A stretch of 64,000 nt of DNA from a virus (lineage: Duplodnaviria; Caudoviricetes), in the IMG/VR virus record IMGVR_UViG_3300005543_000001, positions 4,833 through 68,832 of that record, one strand, 5' to 3'. Shown here piece by piece: positions 3,139-64,000 of this stretch. Below the pieces are notes generated by a model that saw only the letters and a list, made by a program, of their open reading frames with translations, was not told the DNA's origin and searched no databases. Position 1 is the first letter of the stretch. Every line of letters begins with the position of its first letter. Both the position numbers and the translations under genes were made by a program.

Positions 3139-3505
3139 GCTTGCTCCTTTCACGTCGGGCCGCGAGCGCGCCTTGCAGCTCGGGCGGCAAATCGGCCTCC
3201 TCGACGAGCTCGTCCTCGGTGGGCATCTCGACTGCCTGGCCGTCGACCATGATGACGGCGGCGAGGTGCCGCTCGAGCGCGGGCAAGATCTCCAGCGCGG
3301 CCAGGTCGCCGGCCTCGATGTACTCGCCGGTCGCCTCGGTGATCCATCCCGGCGCCGCGACGGGATCGCCGCTGTCGTCGAGCTTGAGGTCGCTCGGGTA
3401 GGTCGTCTGATCAGACGATTCCACGCGAACAGGTAGACCCTCCGCACAGCGAAGCGCGCGCCGCAGAACACGCGCGTGTGCCGGGGTGCAGACGAGGAAG
3501 CTCAC
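3131..3505 (-). CDS. Hypothetical protein, lysis region
   Basis: 124-aa ORF overlapping both neighbours. Confidence 0.6.
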   Translation of the reverse strand: MSFLVCTPAHARVLRRALRCAEGLPVRVESSDQTTYPSDLKLDDSGDPVAAPGWITEATGEYIEAGDLAALEILPALERHLAAVIMVDGQAVEMPTEDELVEEADLPPELQGALAARRERSKHV

Positions 3506-4023
3506 AGCGGCCCCCTTTTCGGCGGTCGGCCCGTGTCGGCGTACTCGAGCGGCTCCACGGGGTTGCCTTCGCCAGGAATCCGCGACGGCGGCGGGAAGCG
3601 ACTCGGCGATAGCAACGGAAGTGGCGTGGGCGTGGCCGGGCGCATGCTCTGCAGCTCAGCCTCGATGAGCAGCTCGAGTTTCTCGTCGCTCACGTCCGAG
3701 AGTAGCCCCGGTGGCGCGCTCGAGCGCGCGGCAGACTTGGCCAGCTCGAGCTTCTCACGACCGTTGCGTGGGCCGATCTTGATGAGCCCGCGGGCGAGCT
3801 TGTTGGCCTGCTCCTCAGCGTAGGCGATGACGCGGCGAACCACCCGGATGATTGTCGCCTCCTGCTGCGCCTCGACCTTGAAGCCGGTCACCTCCGAGAA
3901 CTTCGCGAGCGCTTTCTTGGCGAGCCAAATCGCGGCGACGCTCAGCAGCGCGAAGATCGCTGTGATCGCGATGGCCGCCGCCGCCAGGAGCGTGGTCGCG
4001 TCCTCGGATGTCAGGTTGTCCAT
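3502..4023 (-). CDS. Holin, LL-H-like
   Basis: N-terminal TM, then VIAYAEEQ...GREKLELAK pattern typical of LL-H holins. Confidence 0.7.
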   Translation of the reverse strand: MDNLTSEDATTLLAAAAIAITAIFALLSVAAIWLAKKALAKFSEVTGFKVEAQQEATIIRVVRRVIAYAEEQANKLARGLIKIGPRNGREKLELAKSAARSSAPPGLLSDVSDEKLELLIEAELQSMRPATPTPLPLLSPSRFPPPSRIPGEGNPVEPLEYADTGRPPKRGPL

Positions 4024-4405
4024 GTGTCCCCCCCGCAATGACTCGTCGCAGCTCGTCGTTCTCGATGCGCAATCCCATGATGGCCGTCGCCTGCTGCGCG
4101 TTCTCGCGCTCGAGCTGGGCAAGCTGCGCACGCAGTTCGAGCGCCTCGCGCTGCACGTTCCCGATGACGTTGAACGCGACCAGCGCGAGCTCGGGCGCCG
4201 CGAACGACTTCGCGGGCGCGCTCGGGCGCACAGGCGCGGGCGGCGGCAGGGGCAGGGTCGGCGGCGGCAGACTCTTGTCGGCCTTCTGCAGGCGCTTGTC
4301 TGCCCCACGTTTGAGCAACGCGAACCCTAGCGTGACCACGGCCGCCAGCGCGCCGCCTGCGCTCTTGGTCAGCGTCTCGCCATTCTCGGCCCACCATGTC
4401 TGCAT
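3815..4405 (-). CDS. Membrane-anchored coiled-coil protein, lysis region
   Basis: TM near N-terminus plus heptad region; 3' part overlaps holin by 209 nt. Confidence 0.55.
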   Translation of the reverse strand: MQTWWAENGETLTKSAGGALAAVVTLGFALLKRGADKRLQKADKSLPPPTLPLPPPAPVRPSAPAKSFAAPELALVAFNVIGNVQREALELRAQLAQLERENAQQATAIMGLRIENDELRRVIAGGTHGQPDIRGRDHAPGGGGHRDHSDLRAAERRRDLARQESAREVLGGDRLQGRGAAGGDNHPGGSPRHRLR

Positions 4406-57054: not shown

Positions 57055-57565
57055 GTCGGCAGACGAGCGCACCGCGCGGCTGACCGAGTTGGCGCAGCGC
57101 GTCTATCTCACCGACGAACACCATTTGCCCGGCGTCTATACCCTCGGGCGAGGGGCAGCTGTCCTGACAGATGGGCAGCACAACATGATGACGTTCGAAG
57201 GGCCGCGCGCCCTCGACGCGATCGAAGCCGCTCTCCGCGCGCTCGCGGATGTCGACGGCGAAGATGACCATCGATGTCCCGTCCACGCCGACCAGGTTCA
57301 CGGCCGCGAGGCTGAAGAACTGCGGGCAGGCATTGAGAATATTCTCCGTGCTTTTGACCCGTCTGAGGACGACGACGTGCAACGGATTCGAGAGCAGTTT
57401 TTGCATCTGCTTGACGACGTCGATGCTCGCGACTCGCTGGCATGGTTAGAGCGGCGCGACGCGGCGGCGCTCGACATGCCCTGTTACCACTGCGCGAACG
57501 GCCTCTACTGCCCGCTCGCTGGAACCGATCACGGGCTGCGGCCTAAAGGCGGCGCGCATGGGTAA
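57047..57565 (+). CDS. Hypothetical protein
   Basis: Coupled ORF; C-terminal CYHC..C. Confidence 0.55.
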   Translation: MAESADERTARLTELAQRVYLTDEHHLPGVYTLGRGAAVLTDGQHNMMTFEGPRALDAIEAALRALADVDGEDDHRCPVHADQVHGREAEELRAGIENILRAFDPSEDDDVQRIREQFLHLLDDVDARDSLAWLERRDAAALDMPCYHCANGLYCPLAGTDHGLRPKGGAHG

Positions 57566-58031
57566 GAAGCGCGTCTCACTCCAGGCCGACCTCGACCAGC
57601 TCGCGCGCGAGGACCCCAAGGTCGCGGCTTCGGCGAAGGCATGCGACGACTTCGCCCGCAAGGCGCAGGTGGAGTTTCGCCGACGTGCCTACGAGCTTGT
57701 CGAGCGCGAGCTGATGGCAGCTGGTGTCAGCACTATCTCGTTCCAGCATCTGCCCAAAGGAGGCGCGTGCGCGGTTGGCGCCTGGTACCACGGCGGGCCG
57801 CTCAAGCCGGGCAGCCTAAAGTGGGTAGCTGACCACTGCGAGCCGCGGTCTGCGGTGGAGGCACGGTTCGAAGCTGCGGCGAAGGCACGGTGCGAACCTG
57901 CGGCGAAGGAAGGCCGCTGCGAGTGCGGTACCACGCTCGCGTACTACTCCGGTGCAGGCGCAAGTGGCGTGCTCTGCCCCGAGTGCGACCGCGACCACGC
58001 CGACGAGCTCGAGCCGGGAGAGCGGCCATGA
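57558..58031 (+). CDS. Hypothetical protein with C-terminal Zn ribbon
   Basis: CECG...CPEC. Confidence 0.55.
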   Translation: MGKKRVSLQADLDQLAREDPKVAASAKACDDFARKAQVEFRRRAYELVERELMAAGVSTISFQHLPKGGACAVGAWYHGGPLKPGSLKWVADHCEPRSAVEARFEAAAKARCEPAAKEGRCECGTTLAYYSGAGASGVLCPECDRDHADELEPGERP

Positions 58032-58294
58032 GTGAGCCTGCGCAAGACCCGCCCACGCTGATCGGCGACGTGCACCTAGCGCTCGCCGCGTTCGGCACGC
58101 TGTCGTCTGGCGAGCTGCTCAACATCATCCGCGATGTTCGCCATGACGATCCCTTCCACAAGGACGCGGTGCAGCTCCACGACATCCAAGGCGCGCTCTG
58201 GCAACTGATCGGAACAGGCGCGGTCGTTCGCATCTTCGCGATGGACGGCACCGTGAAGTATCGACTCGCGCGCGCGCAAGGAGGCCGGCCATGA
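58028..58294 (+). CDS. Hypothetical protein
   Basis: ATGA coupling. Confidence 0.5.
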   Translation: MSEPAQDPPTLIGDVHLALAAFGTLSSGELLNIIRDVRHDDPFHKDAVQLHDIQGALWQLIGTGAVVRIFAMDGTVKYRLARAQGGRP

Positions 58295-58500
58295 AGAAAA
58301 GGTGCACTGTCTGCCGCGATCGCCCCTCTAGGCGCCAGCTCGACTTCGAGCACGTCCACGGCCTGTGCGATGTCTGCGCGCGCAGCCTCGCGTGGACACA
58401 GCGCCGGGCTGGCGGCGAGACGATGTGGACGGTTCTCGAGTGGGCTGCCGAACGCGCTCGCAGTGCCGAGCGACGGCGCGGGAAGGAGCGCCATGCGTAA
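58291..58500 (+). CDS. Small Zn-finger protein
   Basis: CTVC...CDVC. Confidence 0.55.
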   Translation: MKKRCTVCRDRPSRRQLDFEHVHGLCDVCARSLAWTQRRAGGETMWTVLEWAAERARSAERRRGKERHA

Positions 58501-58744
58501 GAGGGCCGGCGACATCATTTACACGTACCGGATCAATGTCAGCGAGATCCAGCGTACGAACAAATTCAAGGGCGACCTGCACCCATTCCTCGTGGTCGTC
58601 GACATGCTGCGCTTACTCCTGCACAACCTCGATCCAGCAGTGACCAGCCGCTCGGCAGTCTGGAACGGCGTCGAGGCCGGCTCGCTGGACATCACGATTG
58701 TGCCCGAGCCCGCGAAACGTCGCGGGAAGGAGCGGGCCCAATGA
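58493..58744 (+). CDS. Hypothetical protein
   Basis: RBS and coupling. Confidence 0.5.
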   Translation: MRKRAGDIIYTYRINVSEIQRTNKFKGDLHPFLVVVDMLRLLLHNLDPAVTSRSAVWNGVEAGSLDITIVPEPAKRRGKERAQ

Positions 58745-61065: not shown

Positions 61066-61764
61066 GTGGCCAAATCGATAGAGACGACAGACGCGCCCAA
61101 GCTCAAGACGCCCAAGCAAGGCACATCGAAGCAGTCGGCGGCGAGCGCATCGCCGGAGCAGCGCATCACCATCGCCGCGCCGGATATCCGGGTCGCCGAG
61201 TTTCGGATCGTGGGATCCGCGCCCTACGTGCAGAACCGCTTCTGGAACAAGGGCGCGATGATCGCCGCGCAGCAAGAGGGCGGCACCAACAAGAAGAAGG
61301 CCCGCGCGCCGAAGGACTTCGAGGCGCTGTTCGAGAATGCCAAGCACAAGGCCCCCGAGGGCTGGTGCGGCATCCCGGCGGCGAGCTTCCGCGCGGCGAT
61401 GATCTCGGCCTGCCGCCTGGTGGGCTTTCAGATGACGCGCGCCAAGCTGAGCCTGTTCGTGCTCGCCGACGGCCTGGACGAGGACGGCTCGCCCATCGTG
61501 AAGATCGAGGGCACGCCCGAGCAGCACACGGCGCACGTGCGCAATGAAACGGGCGTGGTCGACATCCGCTCGCGTCCGATGTGGCGCGAGTGGGCTTGCA
61601 ACTTGCGCGTCCGCTACGACGCCGATCAGTTCACCGCGGTCGATGTGGCGAACCTACTCATGCGCGCCGGCATGCAGGTCGGCGTCGGCGAGGGGCGGCC
61701 CGACAGCAAGAAGTCTCTCACGGGCATGGGCTGGGGAACCTTCAGCATCGACGGGGAGGGCTGA
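61066..61764 (+). CDS. RAMP/Cas7-like RNA-binding protein
   Basis: EFRIVGSAPYVQN, GIPAASFRAAMISAC, C-terminal Gly-rich loop AGMQVGVGEGRP...GMGWGTF. Confidence 0.7.
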   Translation: MAKSIETTDAPKLKTPKQGTSKQSAASASPEQRITIAAPDIRVAEFRIVGSAPYVQNRFWNKGAMIAAQQEGGTNKKKARAPKDFEALFENAKHKAPEGWCGIPAASFRAAMISACRLVGFQMTRAKLSLFVLADGLDEDGSPIVKIEGTPEQHTAHVRNETGVVDIRSRPMWREWACNLRVRYDADQFTAVDVANLLMRAGMQVGVGEGRPDSKKSLTGMGWGTFSIDGEG

Positions 61765-61765
61765 G

Positions 61766-62596
61766 ATGCCAGATCTCAGTCAGTCCGCCATTGACGAGCT
61801 CGGCGAGCTCGACCGCGACGGCAAGCTCGCACCCGTGCACGTCCTCGAGGTCGCGCGCAACCCGGGCAGCGCGCTCCATGCGCACTTCAATTGGGATGAT
61901 GCGTTGGCCGCGCAAGCCTACCGGATCGAGCAAGCCGATCGGCTCATCTGCAAGGTGCGCGTGCGCATCCTGCCGCGCGAGGACGACAAGCCGCGCACCA
62001 TCCGCGCGCTCGTGCAGTCGGCGTCGAACGAGTACGGCCGCGAGGCAAACTGCCCGTGGTTGAAGCCGGCGGCCCGCAGTGCGTTCTCCAGCGCGGCCGC
62101 GCCCGCCGTGGTTCCAGACGCACCCGCGCCCGCGCCGAAGCCCGCACCAGCTCCTCAACCTGACGAGGGCGAGGAAGAGGATGATGGGGACGGCGATGAT
62201 GATGACGACGACGATGAGGACGAGCGCGACGACGACGACGAAGACACCACGCAGCCCGATGTGCCGGCGGTCCGCCATCGTGCGAGCAGCATGACCATCA
62301 AGATCGACGCGCCCGGCGCGCAGCAGTTGCTTCACCAGGCGCTTGCCGAGCTCGCGGTGGTTCGCCGACGTTACGCGCACCTCGTCGAGCTGCGGCCTGT
62401 GTTCGAACAGTTCGATCGACTCGTGAAGCCGGAGGCCGTCGACCGCGCCGCGGATAGTCGGCTCCTCGCGACCGTCGAGCTCGCCCGCGAATACGAGCGC
62501 GCCGGCATGGACAGATTCACCGCGGCGGAACGCGCAGCTCGAGCGCACGCCGTCGATCGCGGGGAGGTACTCGCGGCGCTGCGGGCCACAGGCTGA
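61766..62596 (+). CDS. RAMP-associated partner protein with Pro-rich and poly-Asp linker
   Basis: VLEVARNPGSALHAHFNWDD..AAQAYRIEQA; ELAVVRRRYAHLVEL. Confidence 0.7.
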   Translation: MPDLSQSAIDELGELDRDGKLAPVHVLEVARNPGSALHAHFNWDDALAAQAYRIEQADRLICKVRVRILPREDDKPRTIRALVQSASNEYGREANCPWLKPAARSAFSSAAAPAVVPDAPAPAPKPAPAPQPDEGEEEDDGDGDDDDDDDEDERDDDDEDTTQPDVPAVRHRASSMTIKIDAPGAQQLLHQALAELAVVRRRYAHLVELRPVFEQFDRLVKPEAVDRAADSRLLATVELAREYERAGMDRFTAAERAARAHAVDRGEVLAALRATG

Positions 62597-62598
62597 TG

Positions 62599-63301
62599 GG
62601 CAGGCACGGCAGCGCGAGGTTCCGCAAGGCCCGGCCGGGCACGGCTGGCAACGCTAGGCAGGGCTCGGCCGGGCACGGCATGGATCGGCGGCGCAGGCGA
62701 GGAAGCGCATGCCATCGCTAGGTGCGGCAGGGCTCGGATCGGCAGGTGGCGCGAGGTTCGGACCGTCAGGGCACCGATGGGCACGGCAGGCAAGGCGACG
62801 CACGGATTGGCAGCGAGTGGATGGGCGCGGCAGGCACGGCAAGGCGAGGCATGGGCATGGGTAGGTTGGGCGAGGTCAGGCAGGCGGCGCTAGGCAGCGC
62901 AGGGATCGACACGGCGGCGCACGGCTTGGTCGGGCAGGCATGGCAGGGATTGGTACGGCGAGGCCGGGCAGGCTGGGTCGAACGGGGCGGGGCAGGTTTT
63001 GCCTCGCTAGGCGAGGCGGGGCCCGGCTCGGCCGGCGGGGCTGGGCATGCCAGCGCAAGGCAAGGCAGGCTCGGAGTGGTGAGGCACGGCCGGGCACGGC
63101 TAGGCGCGGCACGGCAGGCACGGACATCGCGGGGCAGCGCTGGGCCTCGAAGGGCACGGCTGCGCAGGCGCAGCAACGCAAGCCTGGGCTACGCATCGCA
63201 GGGCACGGCAGGCAGGGCGTGGCGCGGCTAGCCCGAGCATGGCGAGGTCTGGCACGGCCGGCGAGGCACGGTGAGGTTCGGCAAGACCGGGCGCGGCAGG
63301 C
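62599..63301 (+). ncRNA. Array of 16 NN-GGY pentamer units; putative guide RNA array
   Basis: Strict 5-nt period (GGC/GGT/GGA/CGC plus 2 variable nt); units of 4-10 pentamers separated by a 4-nt N-GGY step, mostly GGC-A-GGC. Confidence 0.85.
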
Positions 63302-63338
63302 GTGGGGGAACTGGGCTTGAAGTGATGGGGAGGGAACG

Positions 63339-63641
63339 ATGGGAGCGGCGAAGCAAATGGAACCGAACACGCTGGTGGTGACGCTGACACAGGAGCAGCT
63401 GCACTCGCTCGTCAAGGATGCCGTCTGCGAGGCGCTCAGCGCACAGAAGCATCAGCCGGAGGGCTACCTCGACACCGAGCAGGCGGCGTCGTACCTGGGG
63501 ACGACGGTGAGCAGCCTGCGCACGGCCGTCGCTCGCGGAAAGCTCACGCCAGATCATCGCGGGCAGCGCGGTGGCGGCATGAAGGGCAATCGCTTCTCGC
63601 GGCAGACGCTCGACGCGTTCTGCAAGCGCGTAGTGGGATGA
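63339..63641 (+). CDS. Excisionase-like HTH protein
   Basis: YLDTEQAASYLGTTVSSLRTAVARGKL; directly upstream of integrase-like gene. Confidence 0.8.
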   Translation: MGAAKQMEPNTLVVTLTQEQLHSLVKDAVCEALSAQKHQPEGYLDTEQAASYLGTTVSSLRTAVARGKLTPDHRGQRGGGMKGNRFSRQTLDAFCKRVVG

Positions 63642-63652
63642 CAGGAGTACCC

Positions 63653-64000
63653 GTGTCGAAGAAAGCCAAACCCAAGAGTAGTGACGGCCTGAAGCTTCTC
63701 GGCCGCGAGGCGGGCAAGCTCAAGTACGAAGCTACCCTCCGCAAGAAGCAGGGTGGCAAGCTCATTGTCGACACGACCGCCATCATCCTGGCCGATTCGA
63801 AGGCCGAGGCGCTTATCGAGAAAGCGCGGCGACTCGAGGAAGCCGTGCAGACGAAGCTCGGTAACCGCATCACTGATCGCATCGCGCTTGGCCCCGCGTG
63901 CGACGCCTTCCTTGCCACACTTCGCAAGGGCACCCGCGTCCCCTACGGCTCCCACCTCAAGAAGTACCGCGCCGCCCTCGGTGACGATCGCCCGCTCGAC
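63653..64000 (+). CDS. Probable tyrosine integrase, N-terminal part (truncated by window)
   Basis: AGGAG RBS and GTG; basic arm-like N-terminus then helical domain; follows xis; catalytic residues not in window. Confidence 0.55.
   Translation, partial: MSKKAKPKSSDGLKLLGREAGKLKYEATLRKKQGGKLIVDTTAIILADSKAEALIEKARRLEEAVQTKLGNRITDRIALGPACDAFLATLRKGTRVPYGSHLKKYRAALGDDRPLD

What the first reader, a model, noticed from the sequence alone, without database searches (positions are those of the whole stretch)
61066..63301. Cas7/RAMP-like gene + partner + 5-nt-periodic NN-GGY array: candidate RNA-guided system with a gapped code
Seen: a 232-aa protein with a RAMP-type layout (beta-strand-SAPY, IPAASFRAA helix, C-terminal Gly-rich loop), a coupled partner gene, then 703 bp of non-coding DNA. 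That DNA parses into 16 units of NN+GGY/CGC pentamers, each closed by a one-base-short N-GGY step (mostly GGC-A-GGC). No cas1/cas2 and no CRISPR repeats in the window. Known: class 1 CRISPR Cas7/RAMP subunits polymerise along guide RNA with a fixed nucleotide period. Inference: the RAMP coats the RNA one pentamer per subunit, grips GGY and displays NN for pairing; the short steps mark unit boundaries or processing sites. It sits at the end of the early-left operon just before xis-int. I recall a recent report of phage RAMP plus GGY/NN repeat RNAs (VIPR) that may be this family; I cannot verify that here.
Basis: partly seen in the sequence, partly recalled or inferred. Interest (0 to 1): 0.97.

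Follow-up and report, generated by a model that had tools for sequence, protein, structure and literature searches.

The report
Phage VIPR locus, staggered guide array
This is a real phage-borne VIPR system, a class of RNA-guided DNA binder first described in 2026: a small Cas7-like protein, a partner gene and 16 pentamer-repeat guide RNAs, one of which reads the active-site codons of serine recombinase genes.

Summary
Window 62597-63298 has strong 5-nt periodicity (lag-5 identity 0.487 against a window mean of 0.264, sd 0.025). It parses into 16 units of GGY/CGC+NN pentamers, each closed by a 4-nt step, mostly GGCA|GG.

The 232-aa protein is homologous to SUSP1 Vipr (PDB 36pp; hhalign probability 94.7%, E 6e-8). 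Its model matches Csm3/Cas7 (Z 8.5). Of 40 IMG/VR homologue loci checked, 37 carry same-strand GGY arrays with the same 5n-1 units.

The locus matches the VIPR systems of bioRxiv 10.64898/2026.04.26.720920, including that paper's "staggered arrays" of vrRNAs overlapping by 1 nt.

New here: under the published 1-nt-skip rule, unit 12 matches 24 of 24 database hits antisense on the codons V-A-Y-V-R-V-S-T-D/E. This is the catalytic motif of serine recombinases, and every skipped base falls on a wobble position. The phage's own integrase is a tyrosine recombinase, and no unit targets the phage itself.

No targets were found for the other units. The host, the partner's function and RNA processing remain unknown.

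Verdict: a new member of a known kind, in a clade whose array type has no reported experimental confirmation.

The parts
61066..61764 (+). vipr: 232-aa RAMP (Cas7-like) protein, homologue of SUSP1 Vipr
   Evidence: phrog_4652, E 6.5e-15. The family profile hits PDB 36pp_D 'SUSP1 Vipr protein', E 1.6e-5. hhalign against SUSP1 Vipr: 94.7%, E 6e-8, 172 columns. AF2 pLDDT 81; top folds are Csm3, Z 8.5.
61766..62596 (+). vap-like accessory gene (276 aa): conserved helical N-domain, Pro/Ala plus acidic D/E linker, helical C-domain
   Evidence: N-domain is phrog_15946, E 2.4e-15. The same domain is encoded next to vipr, mostly directly downstream, in 59 of 80 IMG/VR loci. Alignment A2. AF2 model. No Pfam, NCBIfam, PDB or BFVD match. 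Not similar to SUSP1 vap1.
62597..63298 (+). staggered vrRNA array: 16 units of GGY/CGC+NN pentamers (24-54 nt each; 11 of the 16 are 44-50 nt), each closed by a 4-nt step
   Evidence: Same architecture in relatives. No more RNA structure than shuffles, z -0.35. No Rfam family.
63068..63116 (+). unit 12: guide whose NN code, under the 1-nt-skip rule, reads antisense on codons (L/V)-V-A-Y-V-R-V-S-T-D/E of serine recombinase genes
   Evidence: 24 of 24 exact database matches fall on that motif, in frame, with skip = wobble. The target genes carry the Resolvase domain PF00239.
62745..62788 (+). unit 4: candidate second guide against the same recombinase locus (a lead only)
   Evidence: 16/18 NN match at G001:C43 54356-54381, which is 16-41 nt upstream of the recombinase ATG and about 75 nt from the unit-12 site. 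Genome-wide, hits with 2 or fewer mismatches are about as common as for the control pattern.
63299..63338 (+). degenerate end of the array, running into the RBS of the next gene
   Evidence: unit 17 has only 2 GGY.
63339..63641 (+). context: excisionase-like HTH gene (100 aa)
   Evidence: PF12728 HTH_17, E 4e-5; excisionase PHROGs.
63638..64000 (+). context: 5' part of a 428-aa tyrosine integrase that continues across the circular junction of the record
   Evidence: 60-bp terminal direct repeat. Joined reading frame. PF00589, E 6e-13.

Best explanation
The locus is a VIPR (Viral Interference Programmable Repeat) system carried by a complete, circularly assembled 68.8-kb temperate tailed phage.

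Inferred transcription: vipr, the accessory gene and the array are probably transcribed as the tail of the early operon.

By homology to the solved SUSP1 complex: Vipr protomers polymerise along the RNA, one per pentamer. They bury each GGY (here mostly GGC, sometimes CGC) and present the two variable bases. The NN pairs then read double-stranded DNA with one target base skipped between pairs, and so silence transcription.

The array is of the 'staggered' kind. There are 16 guides of 5n-1 nt, without tails or ribozymes. Each ends in GGCA, and the following G doubles as the first G of the next guide. I infer that this register break delimits filaments, processing sites, or both.

Shown by sequence: unit 12 encodes a guide against the codons of the serine-recombinase catalytic motif VAYVRVST(D/E), and it ignores the wobble bases.

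Inferred function: the phage represses serine recombinases or integrases of rival mobile elements. Its own tyrosine integrase is untouched.
For: - Homology and fold of Vipr.
- GGY-contact residues: R138, D177 and R179 of SUSP1 correspond to the invariant R170, E209 and R211 here. H17 corresponds to N57, which is H in most relatives.
- Array anatomy.
- 37 of 40 homologue loci carry same-strand GGY arrays. They share the 44/49/54-nt units ending in [GC]GCA.
- NN content is hypervariable between relatives.
- No self-targets above shuffled controls.
- Unit 12: 24 of 24 hits on one protein motif, with skip = wobble.
- An independent array (L070) holds a guide that reads VA[IM]YTRVST.
- No Cas1 and no CRISPR repeats.
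- The published mechanism and the published staggered arrays.
Against: - Nothing here shows transcription, processing or binding.
- No sigma-70 promoter or terminator was found around the array, though that scan may not suit this host.
- The stacking Trp of SUSP1 (W178) is Gly here (G210). GGY recognition therefore differs in detail.
- About 13% of the pentamers start with CGC instead of GGY.
- Units 8-11 are short or irregular.
- Targets were not found for most of the other units.
- The host is unknown. No Vipr homologue was found in 101 sampled genomes of the family that holds the best candidate target.
- The partner's role is unknown.
Confidence: 0.92

Rival explanations
1. Same components, but the guides act on RNA rather than DNA. 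The Vipr-vrRNA filament would pair with mRNAs, for example the recombinase mRNA, and block translation or recruit decay, as type III Cas7 backbones bind RNA.
For: Both anti-recombinase guides found (window unit 12 and L070) are antisense to the gene, so they are complementary to the mRNA. The nearest solved folds are RNA-targeting Csm3 subunits.
Against: The published SUSP1 and P. fulva systems bind dsDNA and silence from either strand. Two guides in one orientation is no statistic. The candidate unit-4 site lies upstream of the ATG in the promoter/leader region and is in the opposite orientation.
Confidence: 0.05
2. The pentamer tract is not a guide array. It would be a protein-binding or structural DNA element (iteron-like, a G-rich recombination or packaging signal) or a low-complexity coding remnant, and the RAMP-like protein would do something unrelated.
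For: Several long ORFs can be drawn through the tract on both strands. No promoter or terminator was detected.
Against: A 5-nt period cannot be coding. Lag-3 identity is 0.235, below the lag-5 value. The tract co-occurs with vipr homologues, on the vipr strand, in 37 of 40 loci, while its NN content is hypervariable. One unit spells a conserved protein motif under the published code in 24 of 24 hits. That has no explanation under this rival.
Confidence: 0.02
3. A decayed or inactive VIPR remnant: the parts are present but no longer functional.
For: Units 8-11 are short or irregular. The array end is degenerate. W178 is not conserved.
Against: The vipr ORF is intact, and all 49 family-invariant residues are present by construction of A1. 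12 of the 16 units have 8-11 repeats (39-54 nt), and 15 of the 16 closing 4-mers keep the [GC]GC core. The phage record is complete. The G210 state is shared by the whole clade (invariant in A1), so it is not a private lesion.
Confidence: 0.03

Closest known systems
VIPR type II systems of Escherichia phage SUSP1 and a Pseudomonas fulva prophage (bioRxiv 10.64898/2026.04.26.720920 and 10.64898/2026.04.26.720927; PDB 36pp)
   Same: - A homologous single-RRM RAMP protein with thumb and G-loop.
- A two-gene operon (vipr plus an accessory gene) in a phage.
- Same-strand intergenic GGY/NN pentamer repeats with hypervariable NN.
- The 1-nt-skip code, with the skipped base on codon wobble positions.
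- No self-targets.
- No cas genes and no CRISPR array.
   Different: - Only about 23% identity over the hhalign alignment.
- GGC/CGC repeats instead of GGT.
- The guides have no 3' tail or pseudoknot and no separate transcription units. They are abutted with a 1-nt overlap, whereas SUSP1 has about 100-nt vrRNAs with hairpin tails.
- The accessory protein is unrelated to vap1.
- W178 is replaced by Gly, and the G-loop carries an extra segment with an invariant Trp (W223).
'Staggered vrRNA arrays' of the same preprint (fig. S18 legend)
   Same: [quoted passage not shown] That is exactly the GGCA|G GC junction seen here and in relatives.
   Different: I could not see the figure or the supplementary tables. 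So I cannot say which of the seven VIPR types this clade is, or whether this phage was among the 664 loci. The text says the ribozyme arrays and the single-vrRNA systems were confirmed by sRNA-seq. It does not say so for staggered arrays.
Class 1 CRISPR Cas7 backbone subunits (Csm3, type III-A; e.g. PDB 6IFK, 9G9G)
   Same: RRM core, thumb and Gly-rich loop. Polymerisation along a guide RNA with a fixed nucleotide period. Best structural matches: Z 8.0-8.5 over about 145 residues.
   Different: The period is 5, not 6. The repeats are inside the guide rather than flanking a spacer. There are no Cas1/Cas2, Cas10, Cas5 or Cas6 genes and no CRISPR array. Sequence identity is 10-15%.

Membership tests
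VIPR system | Vipr protein: a single-RRM RAMP with thumb and G-loop, homologous to characterised Vipr | tested here: met
   Profile against PDB 36pp_D 'SUSP1 Vipr protein', E 1.6e-5. hhalign 94.7%, E 6e-8, spanning residues 42-229 against 2-188. AF2 topology is strand, helices, beta-hairpin 151-173, helix 191-205, then a Gly-rich loop. Csm3 folds, Z 8.5.
VIPR system | GGY-contacting residues of SUSP1 Vipr (H17, R138, D177, W178, R179) | tested here: inconclusive
   R138 corresponds to R170, D177 to E209 and R179 to R211, all invariant in A1. H17 corresponds to N57 (H in most relatives). W178 corresponds to G210 and is not conserved.
VIPR system | Adjacent same-strand tandem YNNGG/GGYNN repeats (4 or more) with conserved GGY and hypervariable NN | tested here: met
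   136 pentamers, with G 81%, G 90%, C/T 87%, then N, N. Arrays are present in 37 of 40 homologue loci. NN content is not shared with relatives.
VIPR system | Minimal locus: vipr plus an accessory gene (vap), with no cas genes and no CRISPR array | tested here: met
   The partner is conserved in 59 of 80 loci. No Cas1 in the record. No CRISPR-like repeats. Which of vap1-6 the partner is could not be determined.
VIPR system | Targets obey the 1-nt-skip rule, with skip bases on codon wobble positions | tested here: met
   Unit 12: 3 viral and 21 genomic exact matches, all on xVAYVRVST[DE] of Resolvase-domain genes, with skip = wobble in all of them. Not shown for the other units.
VIPR system | No self-targeting by the array's own guides | tested here: met
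   The best self matches are 70-90% of NN and never exceed the shuffled-guide maxima.
VIPR system | vrRNAs are expressed, co-purify with Vipr and direct dsDNA binding or silencing | not testable with these tools
   Needs sRNA-seq, pull-down and reporter assays.
VIPR type II (SUSP1 clade) | Separate vrRNAs of about 100 nt, each with a conserved structured 3' tail; vap1 accessory gene | tested here: not met
   Units abut without tails. The array folds no better than shuffles, z -0.35. The partner is unrelated to vap1.
Class 1 CRISPR-Cas (Cas7 backbone) | CRISPR repeat-spacer array, adaptation and other effector cas genes, 6-nt periodicity | tested here: not met
   No repeats. No Cas1. The period is 5. 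Only the RAMP fold is shared.

The most novel reading that the evidence does not exclude
In this clade the guide array needs no tail, ribozyme or Cas6-like enzyme. The one-base-short GGCA|GG junction would itself break the register of the Vipr filament, and so define guide ends and/or host-RNase cleavage sites. In addition, guides would be selected to read conserved amino-acid motifs rather than particular genes. A single 9-repeat guide would then silence a whole enzyme family across rival elements, here serine recombinases or integrases through their catalytic VAYVRVST codons, whatever their synonymous divergence.
Probability: 0.35. Interest if true: 0.65.

Novelty: new member of a known kind. 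Interest (0 to 1): 0.5.

Why it matters
VIPR is a months-old discovery, and only type II systems have been dissected. This locus is a clean, complete example of the staggered-array clade, sitting in a complete temperate phage genome. It brings a conserved accessory gene unrelated to vap1 and 16 guides.

The same clade is present, unannotated, in cultured and genetically tractable phages: 27 Mycobacterium smegmatis phage records such as Quico, five Gordonia phages and Cyanophage Cy-LDV1. That makes two open questions directly testable: how abutted guides are separated, and what the accessory protein does.

The unit-12 result gives a concrete natural-target hypothesis. The guide reads the catalytic-site codons of serine recombinases and ignores wobble bases. 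This shows how a gapped code can aim at a protein motif rather than at one sequence. It suggests that integrases of rival elements are a target class, alongside the lysis-lysogeny regulators reported so far.

Tried and rejected
Target searches (exact, 1-nt-skip patterns):
- No viral-contig hit for units 7, 2, 15 and 3.
- Unit 1: one hit, in a 512-kb contig with a stop-ridden frame. Judged chance.
- Unit 5: three hits in AT-rich contigs. They read A[HQ]TL[NK]VS[FL], which is HTH-like, but three is about the number expected by chance for 17 specified bases. Not claimed.
- Unit 7 in metagenomes: one hit with stops in every frame. Judged chance.

Mismatch-tolerant scans:
- The 80 vipr loci and the own genome gave nothing above shuffled guides.
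- Unit 4 with 2 or fewer mismatches in 201 genomes of the family of G001 was about as frequent as the reversed-pattern control. Only its position about 75 nt from the unit-12 site in G001:C43 is of note. My rough estimate is p about 1e-3. The contig from G002 is near-identical, so it is not independent.
- Unit 16 matches 14/16 downstream of that recombinase, and unit 7 matches 17/22 nearby. Both are within the null range.

Host: no Vipr homologue at E <= 1e-20 in 101 sampled genomes of that family. Cluster and contig look-ups gave no organism names. The host is left open.

Partner protein: no Pfam, NCBIfam, PDB-Foldseek, BFVD or ESM-Atlas annotation. The weak resemblance to small HTH domains (DeoR DBD, TrpR; E > 5) is not evidence.

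Other checks:
- Rfam found no family. One sub-threshold hit (COG3860, E 0.78) on the opposite strand was ignored.
- I considered that the tract might be coding, and rejected this because of the 5-nt period.
- The search of earlier findings returned nothing for this genome.
- I could not assign the VIPR type (I-VII), because the figures and supplementary tables are not held.
Full report
WHAT IS THERE

The window is the larger part of a 68,832-bp virus record. The record has a 60-bp terminal direct repeat, so it is a circular assembly, rated 100% complete. Its GC content is 65%.

It is a tailed temperate phage:
- Large terminase and portal lie on the minus strand at 25.5-29.5 kb.
- ExoV/Dda-like helicase genes lie on the plus strand at 49.9-52.4 kb.
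- A plus-strand operon then ends with the finding.
- An excisionase-like HTH gene follows at 63339-63641.
- A 428-aa tyrosine integrase starts at 63638 and runs across the record's junction.

The finding itself has three parts.

(i) The Vipr-like protein. A 232-aa ORF lies at 61066-61764 (GTG start with an SD-like G-run). It has no Pfam family but belongs to phrog_4652. More than 5,000 uncharacterised relatives turned up, nearly all unnamed or called 'hypothetical protein'.

(ii) The partner. A 276-aa ORF at 61766-62596 starts 1 nt after the first gene's stop.

(iii) The non-coding tract. 742 nt follow directly after the partner's stop.

The tract's lag-5 identity is 0.487, against 0.264 +/- 0.025 for all 705-nt windows of the sequence. 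At long lags the peak shifts to 24 and 29.

A dynamic-programming parse gives 136 pentamers. Their consensus is G(81%) G(90%) C/T(87%) N N, with C at position 1 in 15% of them (the CGC class). They are arranged in 16 units. Each unit is closed by a 4-mer: GGCA x11, CGCA x2, GGCC x2, GGCT x1. There are no 6-nt steps.

| Unit | Coordinates |
|---|---|
| 1 | 62597-62646 |
| 2 | 62647-62695 |
| 3 | 62696-62744 |
| 4 | 62745-62788 |
| 5 | 62789-62832 |
| 6 | 62833-62882 |
| 7 | 62883-62936 |
| 8 | 62937-62970 |
| 9 | 62971-62994 |
| 10 | 62995-63033 |
| 11 | 63034-63067 |
| 12 | 63068-63116 |
| 13 | 63117-63166 |
| 14 | 63167-63210 |
| 15 | 63211-63259 |
| 16 | 63260-63298 |

WHAT THE PROTEIN IS

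An alignment of 20 relatives (A1) used as a profile finds one solved structure: PDB 36pp chain D, 'SUSP1 Vipr protein' (E 1.6e-5). The match runs from the end of the thumb through helix 2 into the G-loop.

I located the SUSP1 gene in KT454805.2. Profile alignment against it gives 94.7% probability and E 6e-8 over 172 columns, essentially the whole RAMP core.

The AlphaFold model (pLDDT 81) has the expected order: strand, helices, beta-hairpin thumb, helix, Gly-rich loop, last strand. Foldseek's best PDB matches are all Csm3/Cas7 subunits (E 3e-4). VIA-align gives Z 8.0-8.5 over about 145 residues. On that tool's own caveat, this is only just above the level of common arrangements. But the match is uniform across the list and agrees with the sequence result.

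The cryo-EM paper names the residues that grip GGY. Their counterparts here are:

| SUSP1 Vipr | This protein | Conservation in A1 |
|---|---|---|
| R138 | R170 | invariant |
| D177 | E209 | invariant |
| R179 | R211 | invariant |
| H17 | N57 | His in most relatives |
| W178 (stacking) | G210 | Gly is invariant in the clade |

The clade instead has an extra G-loop segment with an invariant Trp (W223). Whether W223 substitutes for W178 is my inference.

THE ARRAY BELONGS TO THE PROTEIN

531 IMG/VR stretches encode relatives. I checked the first 40 loci. In 37 of them a GGY-rich tract of 5-nt period lies beside the gene and on its strand.

Parsing twelve of these tracts shows the same design as here. 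Units of 44, 49 or 54 nt (5n-1) are closed by GGCA or CGCA. In L020, ten of twelve units end in ...CGCA|GG. In L039, 25 junctions are GGCA. The junction is therefore a conserved signal, not noise.

The NN content is not conserved. No unit of this window resembles a unit elsewhere, except unit 16 against the closest relative, L001 (12 of 14).

The array RNA has no more predicted structure than shuffled versions (z -0.35). No Rfam family matches.

IT IS A PUBLISHED KIND OF SYSTEM

These papers describe phage-borne Vipr RAMPs with an accessory gene (vap) and vrRNAs made of GGY/NN pentamers:
- One protomer binds one repeat.
- GGY is flipped into the protein.
- The NN pairs read dsDNA with one base skipped, usually a codon wobble base.
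- The outcome is transcriptional silencing of rival phages.

They define seven types. Beyond the tailed vrRNAs of type II, they mention 'staggered arrays with overlapping vrRNAs'. [quoted passage not shown] That is the GGCA|G GC junction seen here.

Against SUSP1 itself the differences are plain:
- SUSP1 has GGT repeats.
- SUSP1 vrRNAs are about 100 nt, each with a hairpin tail.
- The SUSP1 accessory protein is unrelated to this one.

I could not see figures or supplementary tables. The type number, and whether this phage is among the paper's 664 loci, remain open.

THE PARTNER

Its N-terminal roughly 80 residues carry invariant H38, F41, W43, D44, A48, R53, Q56 and A57. This domain is encoded next to vipr, mostly directly downstream, in 59 of 80 loci. 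It is therefore the clade's accessory gene.

Most relatives are 145-170 aa. The window's version has an inserted Pro/Ala-rich and poly-Asp/Glu linker and a longer helical C-terminus.

The model shows a small helical N-domain, a disordered middle and a helical hairpin. No database gave a meaningful match. Its function is unknown. A role in DNA binding, as the preprint predicts for some vap proteins, is only a guess.

WHAT THE GUIDES AIM AT

I wrote each unit as NNxNNx... and searched.

Self-targeting. No self-target exceeds shuffled guides, as the preprint reports for its systems.

Unit 12. The pattern has 19 specified bases. It matched 3 viral contigs and 21 genome contigs exactly. All 24 matches are antisense on the codons x-V-A-Y-V-R-V-S-T-D/E. 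These lie at the N-terminus of genes with the Resolvase catalytic domain, and every skipped base falls on a codon's third position.

The hits differ freely at those wobble bases. They come from many phyla: Polyangiaceae MAGs, mycobacteria, Micromonospora, alphaproteobacteria and others.

Five other long units, searched the same way in the viral collection, gave 0, 0, 0, 0 and 1 hits. So 24 hits falling on a single motif cannot be chance.

Independent support. Among 812 units parsed from 83 loci, one further guide (L070) reads VA[IM]YTRVST in the same orientation. About 0.15 'RVST' strings would be expected by chance (my estimate).

Consequence. The phage's own integrase is a tyrosine recombinase, so this guide cannot hit its bearer.

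A candidate natural target. In one Polyangiaceae MAG (G001:C43) the targeted recombinase sits at a prophage edge. ParB-methylase and DNA-circularisation genes lie on one side, and a host cytochrome-c peroxidase lies on the other. Unit 4 matches 16 of 18 positions there, 16-41 nt upstream of the recombinase start codon. Matches with two mismatches are as common as controls genome-wide. Only the co-location is suggestive, and I treat it as a lead.

Limits. That bacterial family showed no Vipr homologue in 101 sampled genomes, so the host is not established. No targets were identified for the remaining units.

HOW IT MOST LIKELY WORKS

Shown here:
- homology of the protein;
- the anatomy and conservation of the array;
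- the code match of unit 12.

Taken from the published systems:
- a filament with one protomer per pentamer;
- GGY sequestration;
- gapped pairing to dsDNA;
- silencing.

Inferred by me:
- co-transcription with the early operon;
- delimitation of guides by the register break at the 4-nt step;
- repression of rival serine recombinases or integrases as one function.

The main rival is that the same RNP acts on mRNA. Both anti-recombinase guides are mRNA-complementary, but with only two cases this carries no weight. The published systems bind dsDNA and work from either strand.

VERDICT

The feature is real and correctly interpreted. It belongs to a class described in 2026, so it is a new member of a known kind.

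Its remaining interest has three sources:
- The text does not report experimental confirmation for the staggered architecture.
- The accessory gene is uncharacterised.
- One guide reads a protein motif rather than a single gene.

In addition, the same clade sits unannotated in cultured mycobacteriophages, Gordonia phages and a cyanophage.

Noticed in passing
L130 (Mycobacterium phage Quico NC_028751.1) 2130-2400; L131 (Cyanophage Cy-LDV1 BK059895.1) 3160-3385 and 3965-4140: Cultured phages carry the same vipr clade (31-57% identity), with staggered GGCNN arrays and GGCA|GGC junctions. The synteny is the same: cI/cro ... vipr - small gene - xis. All are annotated as hypothetical. 27 Mycobacterium phage records, 5 Gordonia phages and 1 cyanophage matched.
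   Followed up: partly
L070 about 6562 (IMGVR_UViG_3300045996_000468): A second, independent array holds a unit whose antisense code reads VA[IM]YTRVST, the N-terminal catalytic motif typical of serine recombinases. Serine recombinases may be a recurrent VIPR target class.
   Followed up: partly
window 62995-63033 (unit 10), hairpin about 63001-63017: The one clearly irregular unit (GGTTT TGCCT CGCTA ...) contains a perfect 7-bp hairpin, GCCTCGC-TAG-GCGAGGC, in mid-array. Units 8-11 around it are short. This may mark a boundary between two sub-arrays or an internal signal.
   Followed up: no
window 63638-64000 plus record positions 1-984: The record has a 60-bp terminal direct repeat. The 428-aa tyrosine integrase gene (PF00589) is split by the linearisation point, so the window shows only its first 121 codons.
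   Followed up: yes
window 62088-62290 (partner residues about 108-175): The accessory protein of this phage carries an inserted Pro/Ala-rich stretch followed by a run of about 35 residues that are almost all Asp/Glu (TRF period 15 at 62171-62223). The 145-170-aa relatives lack it. The run looks like a DNA mimic, but this is unexplained.
   Followed up: no
G001:C43 53024-55086 (L108 13024-15086): A Polyangiaceae MAG prophage edge: a ParB-N/N6-N4 methylase fusion diverges from a 229-aa serine recombinase that carries the exact unit-12 target. A host CCP_MauG gene lies next door.
   Followed up: partly
window 62789-62832 (unit 5): Read antisense, the code spells A[HQ]TL[NK]VS[FL], which looks like the second and third helices of an HTH regulator. 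Three exact viral hits were in AT-rich contigs and are compatible with chance.
   Followed up: partly
window 57850-57909: A 24-nt tandem repeat (2.5 copies, 88% matches) lies inside the early operon, in the region of the ORFs at 57558-58031 (+) and 57802-58518 (-). Not examined.
   Followed up: no
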